In this document: positions 1 to 15,996 of the stretch, one piece after another
How positions within the stretch are numbered: position 1 is the stretch's first letter
How the letters are laid out: each line of letters starts with the position of its first letter
Virus record (IMG/VR): IMGVR_UViG_3300045988_124588
DNA length: 15,996 nt
Source of the DNA: a virus
Direction: 5' to 3' (one strand)
The notes under the pieces: model-generated
The model's input: the letters and a program-made list of their open reading frames with translations, nothing else
What the model was told of the DNA's origin: nothing
Database searches by the model: none
Program-made: the position numbers and the translations under genes

Positions 1-246
1 ACCTTGTCGTAGTTCGCTCCTAGTTTCGCGCGGCGTTCCGCGCCGACGCCGTACTCGCCGCGAATCACGGCGTCGGCGAGGGCGTTGAGGTCCACGCCGT
101 TGGATGCGGCGGGTTTGGCTCCTAGTCGCTGGTTTACGATCTGCTGCACCTTGTCGTAGTTCGCTCCTAGTTTCGCGCGGCGTTCCGCGCCGACGCCGTA
201 CTCGCCGCGAATCACGGCGTCGGCGAGGGCGTTGAGGTCCACGCCG
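1..246. repeat. Tandem 147-bp-period repeat encoding CW_7 modules (49 aa per unit)
   Basis: The 99-bp cores 1..99 and 148..246 are identical base for base. A third copy at 15898..15996 is identical to 124..222. Confidence 0.95.
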
Positions 247-746
247 GCCGTTGACGGCTGGCTTGGCGTGGGCGTGTTCGACGCCGCGCCATGGCGTGCG
301 ATGCGGTCGAGCCTGTCAAGGTCGTAGGTGCCGGGGCATGACGTTGGCCTTGGGGAGAGGTCGCGGTGGCGTTTCAACGGTAGGTCGCCGTAGGTCTTGC
401 GGATGTTGCGGATGAGTTCGCCGATGGTCTGGTAGTCGCCGTCTGACTGGCGGGGGTTGCATTCGATGCTGATGCCCTTATCGTTGCCCATGCTGTTGCA
501 GCCCACTCCGTCGCCGGTGGCCCAGCTGCGGTTGTCGGGGTCTACGATGCAGGCGACGCGGCCGGCTTCGGCGACATAGTTCGCGGATGCGCCGCGTGAC
601 TTACTGCACAGGGTGGAGATAACACCGTTGAAGGTGGGATGCTTGGCGGGGTCGTCCCACCAGTGGATGACGATGCAAGCGATGCCGTATGGGCGGCCTG
701 GCGTGTAGTTGGGGCTGTTGTATTTGGTGATGTACTCGAAGGACAT
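1..746 (-). CDS. Endolysin: N-acetylmuramoyl-L-alanine amidase (Amidase_2/PGRP-like) with C-terminal CW_7 (Cpl-7-type) cell-wall-binding repeats. The 3' part runs off the window and resumes at 15996..15891.
   Basis: My own translation from ATG 746 gives MSFEYITKYNSPNYTPGRPYGIACIVIHWWDD...NDKGISIECNPRQSDGDYQTIGELIRNIRKTYGDLPLKRHRDLSPRPTSCPG. This is the typical Amidase_2 layout. It is followed by repeats VDLNALADAVIRGEYGVGAERRAKLGANYDKVQQIVNQRLG, which resemble the CW_7 consensus. An AAGGAA SD lies upstream. The ORF is absent from the ORF track because it has no in-window stop. Confidence 0.85.
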   Translation of the reverse strand, partial: MSFEYITKYNSPNYTPGRPYGIACIVIHWWDDPAKHPTFNGVISTLCSKSRGASANYVAEAGRVACIVDPDNRSWATGDGVGCNSMGNDKGISIECNPRQSDGDYQTIGELIRNIRKTYGDLPLKRHRDLSPRPTSCPGTYDLDRLDRIARHGAASNTPTPSQPSTAGVDLNALADAVIRGEYGVGAERRAKLGANYDKVQQIVNQRLGAKPAASNGVDLNALADAVIRGEYGVGAERRAKLGANYDK

Positions 747-8410: not shown

Positions 8411-8914
8411 GCTGGTTCCTTTCTGGTTTCCGGTTTCGGACACTTTTCCGTGGGTTCCGTCGGCGGCGCGCTGCGAGGTGATCTTCGCGGCCTCGTAGGC
8501 GGGCCACGACACCACGGACACCTCCAAAAGGCGCACGCGCCTGCGGTGGGTGACGCCCTGCTTGTCGGTCTCGTCCTCGATGGGCACGAAGCCGACGCTG
8601 AGCGAGTCCAAAGCGCCGTCGCGCAACAGGGCCACCACGTCCCGGCCGCGCTGCGTGTCGCTGATATGCGCCGTGATGTGCAGGCCGTCTGTCTGCGGTT
8701 CCGCGTTTGTGATGCGGCCGATAAGCTCCCCGTGCTGGTAGCAGAGCTTGGCCGATTCCGATTCCTCGAAGACGCAATCGGGGTCGAACGTCTCGGCACC
8801 GTCCCATGTGCTGATAATGCTGTCGTAGGGCACGGCCACGCCCTCCAACGTGCGGCCATCGCCCTCCTCGGCGGCTCTCAGGCACACGCCCCTCAATCCG
8901 ATTTCATGCTTCAT
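7328..8914 (-). CDS. Fused HK97-family prohead protease (S78/U35, aa ~1-150) and HK97-fold major capsid protein with delta-like region (aa ~169-528)
   Basis: The N-terminus is LEGVAVPYDSIISTWDGAETFDPDCVF...CYQHGELIGR...DGLHITAHISDTQRGRDVVALLRDGALDSLSVGFV...LLEVSVVSWPAYEAAKI, which is the prohead protease pattern. The remainder has capsid-like length and composition. It is a single uninterrupted ORF with AGGAGG before the ATG. Confidence 0.85.
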   Translation of the reverse strand: MKHEIGLRGVCLRAAEEGDGRTLEGVAVPYDSIISTWDGAETFDPDCVFEESESAKLCYQHGELIGRITNAEPQTDGLHITAHISDTQRGRDVVALLRDGALDSLSVGFVPIEDETDKQGVTHRRRVRLLEVSVVSWPAYEAAKITSQRAADGTHGKVSETGNQKGTSMDNDEITEKLNGIMDEQRSLKAAIAKTGNHEPAKIMGSEYRTAGDYLQALYRGDQEAVQLMHECRDLISTGDTGNKVAWIRDDLRLIEQRRKVTNILTHDTLPDKGMTMEYNVVADDTTAVAQQAAEGGDLQFGKVKFGTKSAAISTYGGYTTLSRQTIERSTTPMLNTALAALRNAYAKATENAVRKYLYDTIAAQRDAAKDANKIDAPAALTAMNIDQWAGLIMDAAELADDRNVSLTRLGVSKDVMAALIKLKDTGSRFFDLSGDGSDTLGDFDLTGIAGKFLRVPVQMLPKAPAGTACFIDPEAVTVWESGGPTQLSDGDPTKLTENYSVYGYMAVAATHPLGLIPVKFDATSESV

Positions 8915-10034
8915 TCTGAGCCTCCTGTGTCTGTGGTTCCGGTTGCGGTGCCGGGATAAGCGGCGGCAGCGCCTCCCTTGCGCGCACCTCGTTGACGTCC
9001 ATCCACCCGGCCTCTATCGCCGTCTTGTAGGCGTTGAACCGATCGGCCATGTCCGCGCGCCGGCTGCTGTCCCAGTCGAACGCGGCCGTGCGGCCCCTCG
9101 GCAACAAACGGTTGAACAACTCCTCGATCTCGCCCGCATAAGCCGCCAACGTGTAATCGGCAAACTCAATCCACGACTGTTCTATGTTGCTGTAGGTGAG
9201 ATTGCTGCCGTCAACGGCCGCAAGCATGATGCTGGCCGGGATGCCGAGCAACCGGGCGATCTGCGTGGTATCGAATTTCTGCGTTTCGAGAAACTGCAAG
9301 TCGGCCGGTTTCATGTCCAGCGGCACGTATTTGAGTTTCGAGCCGAGCACCTTCACGTCGCCGGCCTCACCGGTGGCCTTCCACGCCTCCTTGGCGTCCT
9401 TGGCAATCTGGGGGGTCACCTTGTCCTCGGTCTGCAAATAGCCCTTGAGGTTGCTGCCGTCGCTGTAGAACTTGGCCTTGTAGGTTCGGGCCATCTGCGC
9501 GGCCTCCACCTCCTCACGCGCCGCCGAGATTGGGCCAAGCCCACGCAACCGGCCAGGCACGTTCAAAAACTTGCAATGCACGATCTGGTCAGACGTGTAA
9601 TCATGCCCAAGATAGGAATAGCGGAGTTTCGGAGAGGCGGGGTCGGTTCCATCGTCGCTCACGGTCACAAGCGACGGTGGCAGCACCTCGCACGACACCA
9701 CCTCGCCGCCGAACCACACAAGACGCACGAAAGCGTTGCCGTCCAGCACCATGCTTGCCACCATGTCCGCGAGGAAGTCACGGCGGCTACGGTTCACGTC
9801 CGGCTGAAGCACGATGGACGAAACCGTATCGAGCTTCACGCCACCCCTGATTTCATGGATAGGCAAACCCGTGATAGCGGTTTGCAGCACCTGCACGCCA
9901 CGGAACACGGTTGAGAGGCTCAACGGGTCGCAGTCAGCCAAGCGTGCCGGTGGTTTGATGCCGTCCGGCACGCCAGCGTCAGCGCCGCGCGTCAGCACGC
10001 GGCCCGCCATTCTCACACGCTCCCAAATGCTCAT
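8904..10034 (-). CDS. Portal protein (HK97-family-like, 376 aa)
   Basis: Its position between TerL and the protease-capsid gene, its length and its acidic C-terminus support the call. The start MSIWERVRMAG at ATG 10034 is the preferred one. In-frame upstream ATGs at 10094 and 10124 lie in a tandem repeat, so the start is uncertain. Confidence 0.8.
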   Translation of the reverse strand: MSIWERVRMAGRVLTRGADAGVPDGIKPPARLADCDPLSLSTVFRGVQVLQTAITGLPIHEIRGGVKLDTVSSIVLQPDVNRSRRDFLADMVASMVLDGNAFVRLVWFGGEVVSCEVLPPSLVTVSDDGTDPASPKLRYSYLGHDYTSDQIVHCKFLNVPGRLRGLGPISAAREEVEAAQMARTYKAKFYSDGSNLKGYLQTEDKVTPQIAKDAKEAWKATGEAGDVKVLGSKLKYVPLDMKPADLQFLETQKFDTTQIARLLGIPASIMLAAVDGSNLTYSNIEQSWIEFADYTLAAYAGEIEELFNRLLPRGRTAAFDWDSSRRADMADRFNAYKTAIEAGWMDVNEVRAREALPPLIPAPQPEPQTQEAQNEA

Positions 10035-10080
10035 GCGGCCAAGTATCACCGCCAAGCGCCAAACCCGCCACAAGCCCGCC

Positions 10081-10150
10081 GCCCAACGCCGCATAGTGGC
10101 GCCATGCAACGCCGAACGCCGCATAGTGCCGCCATGCAACGCCGAACGCC
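10081..10150. repeat. 30-bp tandem repeat, ~2.3 copies, between the TerL stop and the portal start
   Basis: 10087..10116 (cgccgcatagtggcgccatgcaacgccgaa) and 10117..10146 (cgccgcatagtgccgccatgcaacgccgaa) differ at one base. Partial copies flank them. Confidence 0.9.
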
Positions 10151-10155
10151 ACCGG

Positions 10156-11601
10156 CTAGTAGATTTGCAGCGGCCCCGTTTCCTCCGGCCTGTGGGCTGC
10201 TCCCCAGGCGGCCAACATGCAGCTTTCCAACGGTGATGTAAGGCCGGTGCTGCCACGGCGGCTCACCCGCCATGCGTCGCCGGCCCATTTGCGCGCCGAG
10301 TTCGCGGCGCTGGCGTCCAACTCAGCGTCGGCGGCGTGAGTAACCGCCTTATTCGCCAGACCGGCGACGAAACTCTGGCCGATGGTCAGGTAGTCGGCGG
10401 CGTCCATGTCCACGAACCGCAACAACGGGTCGCCAGCGTCGTCTGCCATATGGTGCAACCTGTCGGACAAATCGGCGGCGGTGCCGCGCGCGTCGATCAC
10501 CACCGGCGCGTCATATTTCTCACACAACCGGTTGAGTTCGGTGGGCGCGTACCCGGTGCCGTCCAAGATTCTCAACAGTTGCACCGTAATTGTGCCGTCA
10601 TTGTTGGCGATGCCAGCCGAAACGCTGGTATGGGTGCCGTCCACGTCCACCGCGACGCCGAACACCACCGGCCGGCCGTCCAAGTCGCCGGGCGTCACCG
10701 GTGCCGTTACCGTAGCCGCCCACAACGCCTCGTCTATCGCCCGGTCCGTTATGCCCTCGTCCCTGCGGTTGCCGAACGCGCGCGCCCAACCTGCCGGGTT
10801 GCCCTGGAACTGTTCTCGGAAGTCGGCCAGCTGCGCCTTGTCCCACAAGAGTCCGGCAGCTGGGTGATAGCGCATGATGCTGTCCAGATTCTCTGGATCT
10901 TCGTCGGCCGGCAAACCGAAGTCGAACCAACACGTTCGGCGCGATTGTTCGCCAGCCCTGCAAGCGTCAAGGCGGCGGTTGAAAAACGTCGATTCCGCCG
11001 TGCCTTCTGTACTGGTAATCCATAGTTGCGGTTGCACGCCGGTGGCCTTGAACCTTGTCGCCATGGTCGGCATGAAGCCGTCCAAAATGGTGTTGCCGGT
11101 TTCCTCGGACAACGAAAACGCCTCGTCCAACGTGATTTTGTCGCCTTGGACGCCGTGCCCCGCAACCTTGGTCACGCTCTTCGGCATTATCACGCTGCCA
11201 TTGGCGAACGGCTGGCGCAAGTCGCCCGCGCCGAGATACGGCCGTGTGGTTATTGCGGCAAGCGGCGAGCTGCCGAGCGTTTTCAGGTATTTCTTGAAGT
11301 GGTCGCCCGCGTCCTTGCCCGTCTGCGCCAGATAATAGATGAAACGATCTGGTCCCCACTGCGAGTTGCGCGTGTCCACCGCGTCCACAAGCGTACTTTT
11401 TCCACACTGTCGCGGTGTGCTCAATATGACCGTGTCATAGTAGTAAGTGCCTGTGTCCGGGTCTATTTCCCCCGCCACGTCGGCTACCAACCGTTGCCAT
11501 GGCAGAAGAGGCGTGCCAAGCAACCGGGCGAACTTGGCGACTATAGGCCCGTCGGTGCGGCGGTCCGGGTTTCGCTGGGTGCCGCCGCGCAATGGCGTCA
11601 T
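10156..11601 (-). CDS. terL: Terminase large subunit (481 aa)
   Basis: Walker A is STPRQCGKST and Walker B-like is KITLDEAF. A C-terminal nuclease-sized domain is present. ATG 11601 overlaps the upstream stop (ATGA). The track start at 11775 lies inside the upstream gene. Confidence 0.9.
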   Translation of the reverse strand: MTPLRGGTQRNPDRRTDGPIVAKFARLLGTPLLPWQRLVADVAGEIDPDTGTYYYDTVILSTPRQCGKSTLVDAVDTRNSQWGPDRFIYYLAQTGKDAGDHFKKYLKTLGSSPLAAITTRPYLGAGDLRQPFANGSVIMPKSVTKVAGHGVQGDKITLDEAFSLSEETGNTILDGFMPTMATRFKATGVQPQLWITSTEGTAESTFFNRRLDACRAGEQSRRTCWFDFGLPADEDPENLDSIMRYHPAAGLLWDKAQLADFREQFQGNPAGWARAFGNRRDEGITDRAIDEALWAATVTAPVTPGDLDGRPVVFGVAVDVDGTHTSVSAGIANNDGTITVQLLRILDGTGYAPTELNRLCEKYDAPVVIDARGTAADLSDRLHHMADDAGDPLLRFVDMDAADYLTIGQSFVAGLANKAVTHAADAELDASAANSARKWAGDAWRVSRRGSTGLTSPLESCMLAAWGAAHRPEETGPLQIY

Positions 11602-11903
11602 GCCCGTGCCTCTTCCAGCAGACCGGCAAGAGCGGGGTCGATTTCCTGCGTTGCCTGGAACTCGGTTTTCAATTCCTGGTACCACGCCAAGAGCTGGGCC
11701 ATGACACGGCTCGTGTCGCGTCCTTTGACGTTCAGCGCGTCGAAATTGCGGGCAATGTTGATCATGGTCTTGCACACGTACTTGGCGTTAGGGTCAAGCT
11801 GCCTATCGCCCACGAAACTCTCGATAAGCTCCTTGGTGGCGCGTTCCTGCAAGCCCTCGTTGGGGCCGTAATAATCATTGAAACCGTCCAAGGTCATTTG
11901 CAT
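11598..11903 (-). CDS. Terminase small subunit candidate (101 aa)
   Basis: It is translationally coupled to TerL, follows AAGGAGG, and is the first gene after the AT-rich gap. The call rests on position only. Confidence 0.45.
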   Translation of the reverse strand: MQMTLDGFNDYYGPNEGLQERATKELIESFVGDRQLDPNAKYVCKTMINIARNFDALNVKGRDTSRVMAQLLAWYQELKTEFQATQEIDPALAGLLEEARA

Positions 11904-12031: not shown

Positions 12032-12754
12032 TCACCACTCCGGCCTTGACACGACTGTGACGCGATCACTGCGAAGCCCCAAGCGTACGAGCATGGCGCG
12101 GCGTTCCCGCTGTCGTGCGTCCACCAACGCCTGTGAGATGTGCAAGCCGTACCATTGACGCACCAACCGCTTGGCCTGCTCCGTCCCGGCCCGCTCCCAC
12201 TCCACGCTGAAGCCGGGGTCTATCACCCGCACGTCATAATCCAGGGCTATCCACTCGTCCAACATGCGCGGATGCCTCTTGCTGCTTGGCGTGGTTCGTG
12301 CAAGCCACACGTCGATAGGCTCCTGAGTTATGGCGAACTGGCGATAGGCAGCAGACCACGCCATAGCCACCGCCCGCCGCTGCGCCATGCTGGGCGACGC
12401 CGGTAGGCGCATGGCCTGAGCCAACGCCGACCACGACACAACAGGGTCGCCGTGCTGCCTGTGTGAGTCAATCCACTCCACTGCCTCACGGTCGCATGCA
12501 CCGGGTGGCGTGATGATGATATGCAAGCGCGCGCCATAGCCATACAGCACGCGGTCTTGGCGACTGGCGTTGCAATGCTTGCACGCACGCCTGATGTTCG
12601 CCACGGTATCCATGCCGCCATGCGAGTAAGGCACTATATGGTCGTCTTCCTCACCCACGCCGGTGCAACCGGGCAACCTGAGCCAACAAGCATTGCCCCA
12701 CGTCTCGATCACCTTTGCCCTCACAAGAGGGTCGATGGTCTGCCTACGCGCCAT
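12032..12754 (-). CDS. HNH endonuclease with a ~170-aa C-terminal extension (240 aa)
   Basis: The N-terminal sequence CWLRLPGCTGVGEEDDHIVPYSHGGMDTVANIRRACKHCNASR is an HNH motif. ATG 12754 is preceded by GGAGG. The C-terminal part has no motif I recognise with certainty. Confidence 0.8.
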   Translation of the reverse strand: MARRQTIDPLVRAKVIETWGNACWLRLPGCTGVGEEDDHIVPYSHGGMDTVANIRRACKHCNASRQDRVLYGYGARLHIIITPPGACDREAVEWIDSHRQHGDPVVSWSALAQAMRLPASPSMAQRRAVAMAWSAAYRQFAITQEPIDVWLARTTPSSKRHPRMLDEWIALDYDVRVIDPGFSVEWERAGTEQAKRLVRQWYGLHISQALVDARQRERRAMLVRLGLRSDRVTVVSRPEW

Positions 12755-12950
12755 GGCCCTGCCTCCGCTTCCTCGCGCGCACCCACATATCAAGATCAGC
12801 CAGCTCGTACAAGCAAGGCGAGTTGAAAGCGTCGCCGGCCTTGAACCATGACGGCCCACGGTTCTCCTCCCTCATGCGCTCCATCGTGCGCGCCGAGACG
12901 CCCAAGTAGATGGCCGCTTGCCTGGTGGTCAGTTTCGCGCGCGGGTTCAC
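12744..12950 (-). CDS. Excisionase-like / MerR-type HTH_17 DNA-binding protein (68 aa from GTG 12950)
   Basis: LTTRQAAIYLGVSARTMERMREENRGPSWFKAGDAFNSPCLYELADLDMWV fits the excisionase-family HTH pattern. GTG 12950 overlaps the upstream stop (GTGA). The alternative GTG at 12968 is possible. Confidence 0.6.
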   Translation of the reverse strand: MNPRAKLTTRQAAIYLGVSARTMERMREENRGPSWFKAGDAFNSPCLYELADLDMWVRARKRRQGHGA

Positions 12951-13288
12951 AGCACGCCCACCCAACACTTGAGCGATGTCAACAGATCGGCGCGGTCGAA
13001 CACCTGCACTCCAGATCGGGATACGGGCTTTCGCAAGACGCCCCTGCTGATAAGCTCCTGCAACACATGGTCGCCGGTCGGGTCGGCTTCCGGCGCGATC
13101 TTGTTCAGGCGAAGCAAGTTGATAACAAAGTAACGCCTAACCATATCGGTTCCGACGGTGTCATGCTCCAACCGTTCGATGTTCCACCTGATAACGTTCT
13201 TGATGTCCTTAGTACGCTGCGCTTTGTTCTTCGGCACCGCACGCTTGGCACGCTTCCTAGTCGGCCTGTAATCCACCGAATATCCCAT
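12947..13288 (-). CDS. Hypothetical protein, basic N-terminus, possible DNA-binding function (113 aa)
   Basis: ATG 13288 is preceded by GAGG with 6-nt spacing. The sequence MGYSVDYRPTRKRAKRAVPKNKAQRTK... is the first gene after the non-coding island. I recognise no family. Confidence 0.5.
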   Translation of the reverse strand: MGYSVDYRPTRKRAKRAVPKNKAQRTKDIKNVIRWNIERLEHDTVGTDMVRRYFVINLLRLNKIAPEADPTGDHVLQELISRGVLRKPVSRSGVQVFDRADLLTSLKCWVGVL

Positions 13289-14247: not shown

Positions 14248-14358
14248 TCACTGCTCCTTGGCCTTCCACTTGGCGTCGCCGGCGAGAGATTCAGCGTGCA
14301 AAGCGACGCCCAGCGCCACAATTGAAACAATCAAAGAAACAAGCCCAAGCACCGTCAC
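14248..14358 (-). CDS. Possible 36-aa single-pass membrane peptide
   Basis: My own translation gives VTVLGLVSLIVSIVALGVALHAESLAGDAKWKAKEQ. The GTG start overlaps the Cro-like stop (GTGA), and the stop lies 1 nt before the next ATG. It fills an otherwise unexplained 108-nt gap and is below the ORF-track size cutoff. Confidence 0.3.
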   Translation of the reverse strand: MTVLGLVSLIVSIVALGVALHAESLAGDAKWKAKEQ

Positions 14359-14591
14359 TTCACCTCCAATGGCTCACGGCCAAGAAGCACGTCTGAGGGA
14401 ATGCCGAAGTGTTCTGCAAGATTGGCGATTTCTTCAGATTTGAAGCTGATTCGTCCGGCGCATTTCTGAGATAAAGCAGACGGAGATATGCCGATGATGG
14501 CGGCAACTTGCTTCAAGGACTCACCTTTGAAGCCCGTTAAACGTTTTATCACCTGACCTGAATTTAGGCCATCTAATCTCAAAGTAGACAT
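14355..14591 (-). CDS. Cro-like XRE-family HTH regulator, first gene of the long minus-strand operon (78 aa)
   Basis: The HTH is SLKQVAAIIGISPSALSQKCAGR. It is divergent from the repressor-like gene across a 90-bp AT-richer switch region. Confidence 0.7.
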   Translation of the reverse strand: MSTLRLDGLNSGQVIKRLTGFKGESLKQVAAIIGISPSALSQKCAGRISFKSEEIANLAEHFGIPSDVLLGREPLEVK

Positions 14592-14599
14592 AGCCCATA

Positions 14600-14628
14600 T
14601 AGATACACCCAGCTAATTTAGATGTCAA
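14600..14628 (-). promoter_or_regulatory. Candidate leftward (lytic-operon) promoter
   Basis: The minus strand reads TTGACA (14628..14623), a 17-nt spacer, TATCTA (14605..14600), then 8 nt to ATG 14591. This implies a leaderless or near-leaderless transcript. The -10 element is weak. Confidence 0.35.
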
Positions 14629-14645
14629 ATCAAGGATGGCGATAG

Positions 14646-14674
14646 TTGCAATATGCGTTAGCTAGGCTTAATAT
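14646..14674 (+). promoter_or_regulatory. Candidate rightward promoter for the repressor-integrase operon
   Basis: TTGCAA (14646..14651), a 17-nt spacer, TAATAT (14669..14674), then 7 nt to ATG 14682. This predicts a leaderless mRNA, which is common in Actinomycetota. Confidence 0.45.
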
Positions 14675-14681
14675 TATGTGC

Positions 14682-15047
14682 ATGACAACAGCAACATTAA
14701 GCCCGCAAGCACAGGTAAAGTCCAATGAGGGCAAGGGCAATGGCCTTCAGTCGATTGTGACGCAAAATATGCGTATTGCCATGGCGATGCGCGGCGTATC
14801 GCAAAAGGACTTGGCGGCGGCGATGGGATTTAATCCATCTGCGATTTCGCAGAAGATGACTGGCCGCGTTTTGTGGAACCTTGAGGATATAGAAAAAGCC
14901 TCCGGTTTCTTCAATGTGAAACCGGAGGCATTGGTAGCGGGGCATGGATTTGAACCATGGACCTCTGGGTATCCCAGAGGTCCCAAGGTTCAAATCCATG
15001 CCCCGGAGCGCCTTCCGGCTGATTTTGGCTTCACTTTAGCCGCGTAG
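14682..15047 (+). CDS. Immunity repressor candidate, XRE-family HTH, circular (viral) form of 121 aa ending in ...TLAA; attP core embedded in its 3' end
   Basis: The HTH is SQKDLAAAMGFNPSAISQKMTGR, paralogous to the divergent 78-aa protein. It lies upstream of and co-oriented with int. The last ~27 codons read through the tRNA-like palindrome. The track start at 14646 is TTG, but ATG 14682 fits the promoter. Confidence 0.7.
   Translation: MTTATLSPQAQVKSNEGKGNGLQSIVTQNMRIAMAMRGVSQKDLAAAMGFNPSAISQKMTGRVLWNLEDIEKASGFFNVKPEALVAGHGFEPWTSGYPRGPKVQIHAPERLPADFGFTLAA
14893..14929 (-). terminator. Intrinsic terminator on the minus strand, immediately 3' of the tRNA-like fragment
   Basis: A perfect 12-bp stem (gcctccggtttc / gaaaccggaggc) with an 8-nt loop at 14898..14929 is followed on the minus strand by TTTTT (14897..14893). 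It begins 3 nt after the CCA of the tRNA mimic. Confidence 0.6.
14932..14970 (-). other. attP core candidate: mimic of a tRNA 3' portion (anticodon-stem 3' strand, variable loop, T-arm, acceptor 3' strand, discriminator A, CCA)
   Basis: The minus strand reads a-cccag-aggtc-catgg-ttcaaat-ccatg-ccccgct-a-cca. It has a perfect 5-bp T-stem and a TTCAAAT T-loop. No matching 5' acceptor strand or D-arm is present, so it is a fragment and not a gene. Confidence 0.7.
14939..15004. repeat. Near-perfect 66-bp palindrome made of the tRNA-like fragment and an inverted degenerate copy
   Basis: The left arm 14939..14969 and right arm 14973..15004 are complementary except ccat versus cccaa in the T-stem position. 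The centre is t-a-t at 14970..14972. Confidence 0.9.
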
Positions 15048-15066
15048 GTGGTCAAGATGGTGTGCC

Positions 15067-15894
15067 ATGACGAAAAACAGGGTAGCGCCCCCGTTATGGC
15101 GTGAGGATATTGATGGTTGGCTGGTTGCGCTGAAGGCGGGCGGTCGAAGCGAGCAGACGCTTTTGACCCGACGACGAAAGATGGCATATGCGGCCTGTTG
15201 CCTAGATGCCGGCCCCTATGACGTGACCTGCGAACGAATCACCGCTTGGTTCGCCGCACAGGAATGGAAACCGGAGACGCGCAAGGCTTACCGCAACACT
15301 TTGTCCAGCTTTTTCGGCTGGTTGCAACAGATGGGACGGCGCGCGGATAATCCCAGCGACGGTTTGCCGAAGGTCAAGCGTCCGCGCCCCCACCCGCGTC
15401 CTTGCCCGGACAAAGTGATTCTGGCCGCGTTGGCGCATGCCACACCCGAGGAGCGGCTTATGTTGCGGCTCGGTGCCGAGTGCGGCTTACGCCGTGGTGA
15501 GATAGGGCGCGTGTCCAGCGACGACGTGATGGACGATCTGGTTGGCCACAGCTTGGTGGTCAACGGCAAGGGTGACAAACAGCGCATAGTGCCCTTGCCC
15601 GATGATCTGGCCGATGAGATTGCCACACATGACGGCTACACGTTTCCCGGACGTTTCGGGGGCCACGTCGAGGAAAGCTATGTAGGTGACCGCCTATCGC
15701 GTTTGCTGGGCGATGGGTGGACGGCCCATAGTTTGCGGCACCGTTATGCGACGGTGACGTGGCAGGCCACGCACGATCTGCTATTGGTCTCCAAGCTGCT
15801 CGGCCATGCGAGCGTGGAGACCACGCAGGTGTACGTGGCGATGCCCGACGCGCGGTTGCGCGCCGGGCTTGACGCGGTGGTGTTGGCCGGTTAG
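15067..15894 (+). CDS. int: Tyrosine recombinase / integrase (275 aa, XerC/D-sized, SAM-like N-domain)
   Basis: Catalytic signature: LRLGAECGLRRGE (Arg), GKGDKQRIVPL (Lys), AHSLRHRYAT (His-x-x-Arg), LGHASVETTQVYV (His and Tyr). Its stop TAG at 15892..15894 overlaps the convergent lysin stop. Confidence 0.9.
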   Translation: MTKNRVAPPLWREDIDGWLVALKAGGRSEQTLLTRRRKMAYAACCLDAGPYDVTCERITAWFAAQEWKPETRKAYRNTLSSFFGWLQQMGRRADNPSDGLPKVKRPRPHPRPCPDKVILAALAHATPEERLMLRLGAECGLRRGEIGRVSSDDVMDDLVGHSLVVNGKGDKQRIVPLPDDLADEIATHDGYTFPGRFGGHVEESYVGDRLSRLLGDGWTAHSLRHRYATVTWQATHDLLLVSKLLGHASVETTQVYVAMPDARLRAGLDAVVLAG

Positions 15895-15996
15895 CCGAGT
15901 CGCTGGTTTACGATCTGCTGCACCTTGTCGTAGTTCGCTCCTAGTTTCGCGCGGCGTTCCGCGCCGACGCCGTACTCGCCGCGAATCACGGCGTCG
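15891..15996 (-). CDS. C-terminal end of the endolysin (last CW_7 repeat and stop), continuation of feature 1..746 across the circular junction
   Basis: The minus-strand translation is ...DAVIRGEYGVGAERRAKLGANYDKVQQIVNQRLG followed by TAA (15893..15891). It is in frame with 1..746 when 15921 is joined to 1 (777 nt, 258 aa). Confidence 0.8.
   Translation of the reverse strand, partial: DAVIRGEYGVGAERRAKLGANYDKVQQIVNQRLG
15898..15996. repeat. Third copy of the CW_7-encoding repeat
   Basis: 15898..15996 is identical to 124..222, and 15922..15996 is identical to 1..75. Confidence 0.95.

What the first reader, a model, noticed from the sequence alone, without database searches (positions are those of the whole stretch)
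14682..15894. Integration-dependent immunity architecture: attP inside the repressor gene, and the viral-form repressor ends in an ssrA-like LAA
Seen in sequence:
- The plus-strand XRE gene (14682..15047) is followed 19 nt later by the integrase. It is divergent from a paralogous Cro-like gene that heads the whole lytic operon.
- The only tRNA-like attachment sequence in the element (14932..14970) lies inside the 3' quarter of this gene, just after the HTH domain ends (…NVKPEALVAG).
- The full-length product ends in D-F-G-F-T-L-A-A-stop.

Established knowledge:
- A C-terminal LAA is the ClpXP recognition end of ssrA tags.
- In mycobacteriophages BPs, Brujita and Charlie (Broussard et al. 2013), attP sits within the repressor gene. 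The viral-form repressor carries a C-terminal degradation tag. Integration truncates it to a stable, active form.

Inference:
- Recombination here would replace the last ~25 codons, including LAA.
- It would also sever int from the repressor promoter.
- In a lysogen the codons after GGG (14967..14969) would be antisense to the host anticodon loop (T-Y-N, N-N-A). Any target tRNA with anticodon C/U-A-N (Met, Leu, Val, Ile) would therefore give TGA or TAA two codons later, yielding a ~97-aa prophage form.
- As far as I know this logic has not been described outside a few mycobacteriophage clusters, nor in a genome this small.
Basis: partly seen in the sequence, partly recalled or inferred. Interest (0 to 1): 0.85.

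Follow-up and report, generated by a model that had tools for sequence, protein, structure and literature searches.

The report
Phage repressor split by integration
This small Bifidobacterium phage keeps its chromosome-insertion site inside its own repressor gene, so inserting into a host tRNA gene cuts a likely "destroy-me" tail off the repressor; the reading is correct, but the same design was already reported for sister Bifidobacterium prophages in 2018.

Summary
The window is a closed, roughly 15.9-kb circular form of a temperate Bifidobacterium bifidum phage. The repressor gene rep (14682..15047, 121 aa, ends FTLAA) contains 39 bp (14932..14970) identical to the 3' end of the host initiator tRNA-Met. 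The integrase gene starts 19 nt after rep.

Integrated copies in B. bifidum genomes show attR as cro-rep-tRNA-Met-metA. attL variants place the crossover within 14960..14968.

Across the family the 16-27 aa viral tail varies widely, yet 22 of 29 tail types end in LAA, with synonymous codon changes. That points to selection on the protein end. Degradation itself is untested.

The novelty claim fails. Mavrich et al. 2018 described this att core and proposed integration-dependent immunity for ~18-kb B. breve prophages. Small Gordonia phages also have it. The integrase belongs to the arm-less Brujita/BPs group.

Not previously reported, as far as I found:
- attP is a 68-nt quasi-palindrome: the tRNA half plus an inverted copy.
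- The palindrome is conserved as DNA in different reading frames.
- It is often "perfected" at attL.
- Integration next to a resident repressor fuses it in frame to the incoming tail.

Verdict: new member of a known kind.

The parts
14355..14591 (-). cro-like HTH gene (78 aa) heading the minus-strand lytic operon
   Evidence: Translation. Pfam HTH_3/BetR. 34% identical to Rep. The exact protein is found next to rep in prophages and viral contigs.
14592..14681 (.). cro-rep intergenic control region with back-to-back promoter-like hexamers. For rep: TTGCAA 14646-14651, 17 nt, TAATAT 14669-14674, then 7 nt to ATG 14682, consistent with a leaderless mRNA. For cro: TTGACA on the minus strand at 14628-14623.
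   Evidence: Read directly from the sequence. Both fall below the threshold of the consensus scan, so this is inference only.
14682..15047 (+). rep, viral form: 121-aa XRE-family repressor ending FTLAA-stop
   Evidence: PHROG transcriptional repressor. The exact protein occurs only on phage-sized contigs.
14898..14929 (-). intrinsic terminator for the reconstituted tRNA: a 12-bp stem followed by TTTTT. It lies on the antisense strand of rep codons for EKASGFFNVKPEA.
   Evidence: Terminator scan, fold. It sits directly 3' of the tRNA CCA end at attR.
14932..14970 (-). attP common core: 39 nt equal to the 3' part of host initiator tRNA-Met(CAT), from anticodon-stem 3' strand through variable loop, T arm and acceptor strand to CCA. 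Also the left arm of the palindrome.
   Evidence: Identical to attR in L010/L011 and to the att sequence in Mavrich et al. 2018.
14960..14968 (.). segment that must contain the strand-exchange (overlap) region, GACCTCTGG
   Evidence: Left limit: attL in L006/L101/L115 keeps a foreign T stem on both strands. Right limit: relatives L026 and L093 share tRNA identity only up to CTCTGG.
14938..15005 (.). 68-nt quasi-palindrome with a TAT loop at 14970-14972 and one mismatch plus one bulge
   Evidence: DNA fold -37.4 kcal/mol, z -13.7. RNA fold of 14885-15070 -108.7 kcal/mol, z -10.45.
14973..15005 (+). right arm: an inverted copy of the tRNA variable-loop, T-arm and acceptor segment. It encodes the middle of the Rep tail (RGPKVQIHAP).
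   Evidence: Conserved as DNA in relatives but translated in different frames, KVQIH versus RFKSM.
14970..15044 (+). 25 codons present only in the viral form (YPRGPKVQIHAPERLPADFGFTLAA). The LAA codons are 15036-15044.
   Evidence: Replaced by L-stop at attR. Conservation of the LAA end.
15067..15894 (+). int: 275-aa arm-less tyrosine integrase of the Brujita/BPs group
   Evidence: Pfam PF00589, residues 126-259 only. Best PDB match 5vfz Gp33, E 1.5e-27. 43-45% identical to integrases of Gordonia GMA5/Emperor and Mycobacterium cluster G phages.
12747..12968 (-). small HTH_17 protein, a candidate excisionase/RDF or early regulator
   Evidence: Pfam HTH_17, 3.7e-6. PHROG 66 'excisionase and transcriptional regulator', 2.2e-6.

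Best explanation
This is the rep-attP-int module of an integration-dependent immunity switch in a ~15.9-kb temperate siphophage of Bifidobacterium bifidum, captured in its excised circular form.

**Proposed mechanism, step by step**
1. In the free phage, Rep is made as a 121-aa protein. Its last 25 residues are encoded to the right of the crossover point and end in LAA, the ClpX-recognised end of ssrA tags. Viral Rep is therefore predicted to be unstable, which favours lytic growth.
2. The arm-less integrase recombines attP with the 3' half of the initiator tRNA-Met gene next to metA. Strand exchange occurs within GACCTCTGG (14960-14968).
3. The phage's own copy of the tRNA 3' half, plus a terminator on the antisense strand of rep, rebuilds the tRNA at attR.
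4. There rep now runs into the antisense of the anticodon loop and stops at TGA after one new codon. The product is a 97-aa untagged Rep, predicted to be stable and to repress cro and the lytic operon.
5. The tail codons and int move about 15 kb away to attL.

**Shown here:** the two DNA states, the two protein forms and where they occur, the crossover interval, conservation of the LAA end, and the kinship of the integrase.

**Inferred:** proteolysis of the long form, activity of the short form, and that integrase level sets the lysis-lysogeny decision.
For: - The viral junction is seen in three independent assemblies: the window, L008 and L009.
- attR reads cro-rep(97/99 aa)-tRNA-Met(CAT)-metA, and attL carries int, on the same chromosome contig (L002 and L010).
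- The 39-bp core is identical to the published att of Bb423phi2 and 689b-1, for which the same mechanism was proposed.
- 34 cluster representatives end ...EPWTSGL.
- Of 29 distinct viral tails of 16-27 aa, 22 end in LAA and 4 more in LTA, LVA or LAS. The rest of the tail varies and is even frame-shifted.
- The LAA codons and stop codons vary synonymously: TTA/CTA, GCC/GCG/GCT/GCA, TAG/TAA/TGA.
- The long form occurs only on contigs of 17.1 kb or less labelled Caudoviricetes. The short form occurs on 295 contigs of up to 2.19 Mb (the named records are B. bifidum).
- The integrase is homologous to the Brujita integrase (5vfz) and to cluster G (BPs-type) and Gordonia small-phage integrases.
- Gene order, with cro divergent from rep followed by int, is as defined for these switches.
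Against: - There is no experimental evidence here, nor in the 2018 paper, that the LAA form is degraded or that the 97-aa form confers immunity.
- I could not verify the Bifidobacterium ssrA tag sequence (one search failed).
- The integrase ends in VVLAG and its relatives end in TLQA, VRLI or IPGA, so the second tagged component of the BPs system is not evident.
- A candidate excisionase is present, unlike the RDF-free BPs model.
- One widespread lineage with the same integrase family ends in WALVD, with no LAA and no palindrome.
- In most B. bifidum lysogens seen here, int still lies downstream of a co-oriented relic repressor gene.
Confidence: 0.8

Rival explanations
1. The attP-in-rep layout is real, but the switch works mainly at the nucleic-acid level. 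The 68-nt hairpin, present only when both arms are joined on the rep transcript (the viral form), destabilises or truncates rep mRNA or attenuates int. The LAA end would be secondary.
For: - The palindrome is conserved as DNA across integrase lineages of 60-80% identity, with loops of 3-13 nt, and is read in different frames.
- It folds very strongly.
- Integration removes the right arm from the rep transcript.
- The palindrome and LAA are lost together in the WALVD lineage.
Against: - LAA is conserved at the protein level with synonymous codon changes, independently of the arm sequence.
- No T-run follows the hairpin, so it is not a classical terminator.
- The hairpin persists upstream of int at attL, so it cannot distinguish the two states for int.
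- No RNA data are available.
Confidence: 0.12
2. The overlap of attP with rep is genome compaction without regulatory meaning. Both Rep forms are active and immunity does not depend on integration. The LAA end would be a by-product of reading through att DNA.
For: - The genome is very small and tightly packed.
- A sister lineage functions, presumably, with a WALVD end.
- Per the BPs paper, both Rep forms bind DNA similarly.
Against: - 26 of 29 tail types keep L-[A/T/V]-[A/S] at the extreme end despite frameshifts and indels upstream.
- This arrangement with an homologous integrase is experimentally integration-dependent in BPs and Brujita.
- The long form is never seen on chromosomes.
Confidence: 0.06

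Closest known systems
Bifidobacterium breve prophages Bb423phi2 and 689b-1 (Mavrich et al. 2018, Sci Rep 8:12772, PMC6109161)
   Same: - The 39-bp att core is identical (TGGTAGCGGGGCATGGATTTGAACCATGGACCTCTGGGT).
- Same target: tRNA-Met next to metA.
- int lies at attL and rep at attR.
- Small genome (~18 kb).
- The in-silico viral Rep has an ssrA-like end, and integration-dependent immunity was explicitly proposed.
- An integrase about 81% identical, on loci whose Rep tail is 18 residues longer net than the prophage form, as reported for these prophages (my inference).
   Different: - Host is B. bifidum and the genome is 15.9 kb.
- The Rep DNA-binding part is only about 33-39% identical to Reps carrying that tail type (P0108-P0120), so a different immunity specificity is likely.
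- The tail is 25 residues rather than a net 18.
- Here the viral form is observed directly rather than reconstructed.
- The paper does not mention the palindrome, the crossover position, or the relic-repressor fusions.
Mycobacteriophage BPs / Brujita / Charlie integration-dependent immunity (Broussard et al. 2013; Broussard and Hatfull 2013, PMC3694055; Villanueva et al. 2015, PMC4557955)
   Same: - A three-gene cassette: cro divergent from rep, followed by int.
- attP lies inside the 3' end of rep, at a tRNA 3' half.
[quoted passage not shown]
- The integrase is an homologous arm-less enzyme: 43-45% identical to cluster G integrases and best PDB hit the Brujita integrase.
   Different: - Different host phylum branch, different tRNA, and a genome about one third the size.
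- No evident tag on the integrase.
- A candidate Xis is present.
- attP carries a long inverted copy of the tRNA half, which is absent from Liefie (cluster G) and Emperor.
- Nothing has been tested experimentally.
Small temperate Gordonia phages (GMA5, GRU3, EricDab, Emperor; 16.6-17.7 kb; cluster CW per Mavrich et al.)
   Same: Closest isolated-phage integrases (about 45% identity), similar genome size, and rep upstream of int. Emperor Rep contains a tRNA-antisense segment and ends in VAA. These phages are reported to use integration-dependent immunity.
   Different: No nucleotide similarity, different tRNA target, and no long palindrome at attP.
Quasipalindrome template-switch correction (established mutational mechanism; from my own knowledge, Ripley and Lovett laboratories)
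   Same: Imperfect inverted repeats are converted to perfect ones. Here the displaced left arm at attL repeatedly becomes the exact complement of the right arm of that particular phage.
   Different: This is inferred from natural variants only. Selection, for example un-tagging a relic repressor by a +1 frameshift, cannot be separated from mechanism.

Membership tests
Integration-dependent immunity system (Broussard et al. 2013) | Compact cassette in which rep and int are co-oriented and a cro-like gene is divergent | tested here: met
   cro 14355-14591 (-), rep 14682-15047 (+), int 15067-15894 (+). Definition taken.
Integration-dependent immunity system (Broussard et al. 2013) | attP lies inside the rep ORF, so viral and prophage genomes encode different Rep forms | tested here: met
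   attP core 14932-14970 lies inside rep. attR encodes 97 aa ending TSGL, versus 121 aa in the viral form. The two forms segregate by contig type.
Integration-dependent immunity system (Broussard et al. 2013) | Viral Rep carries a C-terminal ssrA-like degradation tag that integration removes | tested here: met
   At the sequence level only. The viral form ends in LAA, and 22/29 tail types in the family end in LAA with synonymous codon variation.
Integration-dependent immunity system (Broussard et al. 2013) | The long form is proteolysed and inactive, and the short form is stable and confers immunity | not testable with these tools
   Requires protein half-life and immunity assays.
Integration-dependent immunity system (Broussard et al. 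2013) | [quoted passage not shown] | tested here: inconclusive
   The integrase ends in VVLAG and its relatives end in TLQA, VRLI or IPGA. These are non-polar ends but not LAA-like, with no conserved motif.
Integration-dependent immunity system (Broussard et al. 2013) | No recombination directionality factor, cII or cIII | tested here: inconclusive
   A 74-aa HTH_17 / PHROG 66 'excisionase and transcriptional regulator' gene lies at 12747-12968 in the early operon. Its role is unknown.
Arm-less simple tyrosine integrases, Int-Brujita subgroup (Lunt and Hatfull 2016; Smyshlyaev et al. 2021) | Core-binding plus catalytic domains only, with no N-terminal arm-binding domain, and homology to the Brujita integrase | tested here: met
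   275 aa. Pfam catalytic domain at 126-259 only. PDB 5vfz Gp33, E 1.5e-27 over residues 18-269. RKHRH-Y residues read from the sequence (GLRRGE, GKGDKQR, HSLRHR, LLGH, QVYV). Subgroup described.
tRNA-gene attachment with restoration of the tRNA 3' end | The identity block runs from within the tRNA to its 3' end, and the tRNA is intact at one prophage junction | tested here: met
   ARAGORN finds tRNA-Met(CAT) at attR in L010 and L011, with the 3' 39 nt supplied by the phage. There is no complete tRNA in the window.
XRE / Cro-CI family HTH repressor | HTH_3-type DNA-binding domain | tested here: met
   Pfam HTH_3, 23.4 bits against a cutoff of 23, at residues 32-83. PHROG transcriptional repressor families, 9e-12.

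The most novel reading that the evidence does not exclude
Two linked ideas survive the evidence.

**(1) A second integration-split device.** The inverted copy of the tRNA half in attP may be functional. The long hairpin would exist on the rep transcript only in the free phage and be broken by integration, while a copy stays upstream of int at attL.

**(2) Re-tagging of a resident repressor.** Every family member reads the tRNA segment in the same frame (an invariant VAGHGFEPWTSG). A heteroimmune relative that integrates into the tRNA rebuilt at a resident prophage's attR would therefore fuse the resident repressor in frame to the incoming LAA tail. That re-tags the resident repressor and could lift its immunity, which would be a prophage-eviction or anti-immunity mechanism. 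The fused product is seen directly in L002. In other strains it is neutralised by a +1 change that also perfects the palindrome.
Probability: 0.25. Interest if true: 0.62.

Novelty: new member of a known kind. Interest (0 to 1): 0.3.

Why it matters
The switch logic is not new. This window and its relatives do add three things.

- **Direct sequence evidence for both states.** Both the free and integrated forms of the Bifidobacterium version exist in gut samples, so these small "cryptic" prophages do excise.
- **Evolutionary support for the degron.** The family-wide conservation of the LAA end, on a tail that is otherwise free to vary and even shift frame, is the best available evidence that the end is a working degron.
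- **Practical use.** The cassette is a compact, self-contained integration and immunity module for a genus that is hard to engineer.

The palindromic attP and the in-frame re-tagging of resident repressors are testable additions. They bear on how related phages compete for one attachment site.

Tried and rejected
- **Search for a complete tRNA in the window:** none found. Only a 3' half is present, as expected for an attP.
- **Nucleotide search of isolated phages:** only a tape-measure fragment matched, so no isolated close relative exists in that collection.
- **Rfam:** only spurious miRNA-precursor hits, driven by the hairpin.
- **Palindrome as the core-type inverted repeat around the crossover:** rejected. 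tRNA identity stops before the dyad centre, the loop varies from 3 to 13 nt, and attL variants put the crossover in the left arm.
- **T-loop crossover:** rejected. L006, L101 and L115 keep both foreign T-stem strands at attL.
- **Palindrome as an intrinsic terminator:** no T-run follows it. Only a weak 6-bp hairpin with a TTTT run lies at 15003-15028.
- **Host tmRNA tag:** I tried to fetch it with the published 26-nt tmRNA att sequence. The single genome-contig scan returned no Bifidobacterium locus, so the host ssrA tag was not verified.
- **Broussard 2013 Mol Cell paper:** not held. I used the authors' addendum and the 2015 paper instead.
- **Same palindrome in Liefie (cluster G) and Emperor:** absent.
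Full report
**What the window is.** The 15,996-nt window begins and ends with the same 75 nt. Joining the ends restores a 258-aa Amidase_2/CW_7 lysin of the same length as in integrated relatives. It is therefore a complete circular form, 15,921 bp and 61% G+C, of a small siphophage.
- Nearly all genes lie on the minus strand, from a cro-like gene at 14591 round to the lysin.
- Only rep and int are on the plus strand.
- The host is Bifidobacterium bifidum. The exact integrase and the short repressor form are on chromosomal contigs of up to 2.3 Mb, and the records that carry a name are B. bifidum.

**Check of the observation.** All the stated coordinates hold.
- rep 14682..15047 gives 121 aa ending DFGFTLAA.
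- int starts 19 nt later.
- cro is a paralogue of rep, 34% identical, E 2e-10.
- The HTH region covers residues 24-92.
- The segment 14932..14970 is, on the minus strand, ACCCAGAGGTC-CATGG-TTCAAAT-CCATG-CCCCGCT-A-CCA. That is the 3' strand of an anticodon stem, the variable loop, a perfect T arm, the acceptor strand, the discriminator base and CCA.
- No whole tRNA is present.
attP is therefore a 68-nt quasi-palindrome with one mismatch and one bulge.

**Integrated copies.** A look-up of the exact integrase protein returned seven chromosomal loci and two viral-form contigs. A look-up of the exact Cro returned the other prophage end.
- L002 and L010 lie on the same contig, about 16 kb apart.
- At attR the order is cro, rep, tRNA-Met(CAT), metA, ATP synthase genes.
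- The tRNA is of the initiator type: CGCGGGG at the 5' end and three G-C pairs closing the anticodon stem, read.
- rep there reads ...GGG TTA TGA, giving ...EPWTSGL-stop. That is 97 aa from ATG 14682. Gene callers use ATG 14676 and report 99 aa.
- The TGA is the complement of the T preceding the anticodon plus the CA of the CAT anticodon.
- The phage and host sequences are identical over 14932..14970 and differ from 14971 onwards.

**Where the crossover is.**
- In L006 and L101 (the same integrase) and in L115 (an integrase about 66% identical), the phage lies next to another element. That element's copy of the tRNA half has a different T stem, ACAGG...CCTGT.
- Both strands of this foreign stem are retained at attL. 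Exchange therefore occurs to the right of 14959.
- In relatives L026/L077 and L093, identity to the tRNA ends at CTCTGG, equivalent to 14968.
- If the homologous integrases cut at the same place, the overlap region lies within GACCTCTGG (14960..14968). This is not the centre of the palindrome.

**Is the LAA end meaningful?** A search with Rep found 125 relatives in Bifidobacteriaceae.
- 34 cluster representatives end ...EPWTSGL, the prophage form.
- 29 distinct tails of 16-27 aa follow TSG. Examples are YPRGPKVQIHAPERLPADFGFTLAA, DTRGPRFKSMGLPSLSKLSLAA, NMVAQRNMVQIHEARLSAFILAA, ATPRPMVQIHAGLSRLSLILAA and YPRGPRSKPMPRLILSLAA.
- 22 of these end in LAA, and four more end in LTA, LVA or LAS.
- At the DNA level the last codons vary synonymously (TTA/CTA; GCC/GCG/GCT/GCA) and all three stop codons occur.
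- The middle of the tail is the right arm of the palindrome read in different frames. AAG GTT CAA ATC CAT gives KVQIH, and AGG TTC AAA TCC ATG gives RFKSM.
- So the arm is conserved as nucleic acid and the extreme end as protein. This is good evolutionary evidence that the end is selected, and it fits a ClpX-type degron (established knowledge: Flynn et al. 2001, cited).
- Degradation itself is not shown.
- One lineage (P0011 and L029) has the same integrase family but ends in WALVD and has lost the palindrome.

**Comparison with what is known.** The literature search settles the novelty question.
- Mavrich et al. 2018 described B. breve prophages Bb423phi2 and 689b-1. They are ~18 kb and sit in tRNA-Met next to metA.
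- Their attR sequence is TGGTAGCGGGGCATGGATTTGAACCATGGACCTCTGGGT, identical to window 14932..14970.
- The authors reconstructed viral repressors carrying 18 extra residues "which include ssrA-like tags". They concluded that these prophages use integration-dependent immunity.
- The same system is reported for Gordonia, Streptomyces and M. abscessus phages.
- The integrase here is 43-45% identical to those of Gordonia GMA5, GRU3, EricDab and Emperor (16.6-17.7 kb) and of Mycobacterium cluster G, the BPs cluster.
- Its best solved relative is 5vfz Gp33, which I take to be the arm-less Brujita integrase (the entry names it only 'Gp33').
- On the defining features of the system, the cassette layout, attP within rep and the tagged long form are met.
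- The tag on the integrase and the absence of an RDF are inconclusive. The integrase ends in VVLAG, and an HTH_17/PHROG 66 gene is present.

**What is new in detail.**
1. The palindrome.
   - It is present in most family members with integrases down to about 60% identity. Loops range from 3 to 13 nt. In L117 the loop, TTATTAG, is nearly the anticodon loop.
   - It is absent from Liefie and Emperor and is not mentioned in the 2018 paper.
2. Conversion at attL.
   - The displaced, now useless tRNA half is repeatedly altered to the exact complement of that phage's right arm.
   - Examples: CCTTGGGACC with GGTCCCAAGG (L001 type, including the extra base), CCTTGG with CCAAGG (L109, L125), CCGTGG with CCACGG (L110, L114), and GGATTTGGACC with GGTCCAAATCC (L107, L108, L118).
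   - Every viral attP examined keeps a perfectly paired T stem in the left arm.
   - This is the pattern expected from quasipalindrome template-switch correction, held in check on the phage by selection for a working tRNA.
3. The embedded terminator. The minus strand of rep codons 73-83 is an intrinsic terminator placed directly after the tRNA CCA. The phage therefore supplies both the tRNA end and its terminator inside its repressor gene.
4. The relic repressor at attL.
   - In most B. bifidum lysogens seen here, attL is preceded by a relic repressor gene, which I call rep_B, with promoter-like hexamers (TTGAAA, 17 nt, TAATCT) upstream, read by eye.
   - The rep_B cluster (P0078, 266 members) normally ends TSGL next to the tRNA.
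   - After integration it is fused in frame to the incoming tail ...FTLAA in L002.
   - In L001-type strains the +1 base frameshifts it.
   - Because the tRNA-encoded VAGHGFEPWTSG is invariant, any family member integrating beside another would re-tag the resident repressor.
   - The same Rep N-terminus also occurs with two different tail/int modules (P0007 versus P0016). This shows reassortment at the core.

**Verdict.** The mechanism is very probably the BPs-type switch, but it is already described for sister prophages of the same genus with the identical att core. This is a new member of a known kind. The palindromic attP and its consequences are modest open side-questions.

Noticed in passing
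window 14938-15005; attL in L001, L109, L110, L114, L107/L108/L118: attP is a 68-nt quasi-palindrome: the tRNA 3' half plus an inverted copy. At attL the displaced left arm is repeatedly changed, by substitutions, a 1-nt insertion and a T-loop change, into the exact complement of that phage's right arm. All viral attPs examined keep a functional T stem.
   Followed up: partly
L001-L005 and L007, about 9546-9981; L099 5896-6534: A relic repressor gene (rep_B, cluster P0078 with 266 members) sits next to the tRNA-Met site in B. bifidum, beside BrnT/BrnA-like toxin-antitoxin genes. Integration of the window-type phage fuses it in frame to ...FTLAA in L002, or out of frame in L001-type strains.
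   Followed up: partly
window 14898-14929 (minus strand): A strong intrinsic terminator (12-bp stem plus TTTTT) for the rebuilt tRNA is encoded on the antisense strand of the repressor's coding sequence (EKASGFFNVKPEA). The stretch is therefore dual-purpose.
   Followed up: yes
window 15891-15996 and 1-746 (minus strand): The lysin gene spans the window ends and carries two 147-nt CW_7 repeats. Relatives have 209-, 258- and 307-aa lysins, corresponding to 1, 2 or 3 repeats. The contig break lies in this repeat, so the copy number in this genome is uncertain.
   Followed up: partly
window 12747-12968 (minus strand): A 74-aa HTH_17 protein matches PHROG 66 'excisionase and transcriptional regulator'. 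It is a candidate directionality factor in a switch type described as lacking one.
   Followed up: no
L029 2750-3079, L031, L061; proteins P0011, P0034, P0039, P0041, P0063: A sister lineage with the same integrase family has a Rep tail ending WALVD. It has no LAA and only a decayed trace of the right arm. L029 also carries a truncated second rep fragment upstream.
   Followed up: partly
L099 6492-6600; L025, L027, L043, L060, L070, L073, L074, L078, L080; L082, L086, L087: Other phage families use the same tRNA-Met but share identity further into the tRNA (GGGTTATGA|TCCCGA..., or GGGTTATGAGCCCA|CGTTTTC...). When they integrate beside a resident rep, its TGA stop is preserved. L074 joins a converted (damaged) left arm to such an att, which suggests excision can leave an altered tRNA.
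   Followed up: no
L006 8960-9739 and 9860-9900; L101; L115: Tandem occupancy of the site. A different prophage with its own integrase lies immediately left of the window-type prophage. Its tRNA copy has a compensated T stem (ACAGG/CCTGT). L071 carries another compensated variant (CAAGG/CCTTG) at attR.
   Followed up: partly
window 15048-15069; L102, L107, L112, L122 just upstream of int: A short palindrome overlapping the int start codon is conserved in form across relatives (GGCACGATGGTGTGCCATG; GACACATGATGTGTCATG). It could be a translational or operator element for int.
   Followed up: no
window 10080-10150: A 30-nt tandem repeat of 2.4 copies at 95% identity, where the minus-strand ORFs 8904-10256 (450 aa) and 10156-11775 (539 aa) overlap; I did not assign functions to these ORFs.
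   Followed up: no
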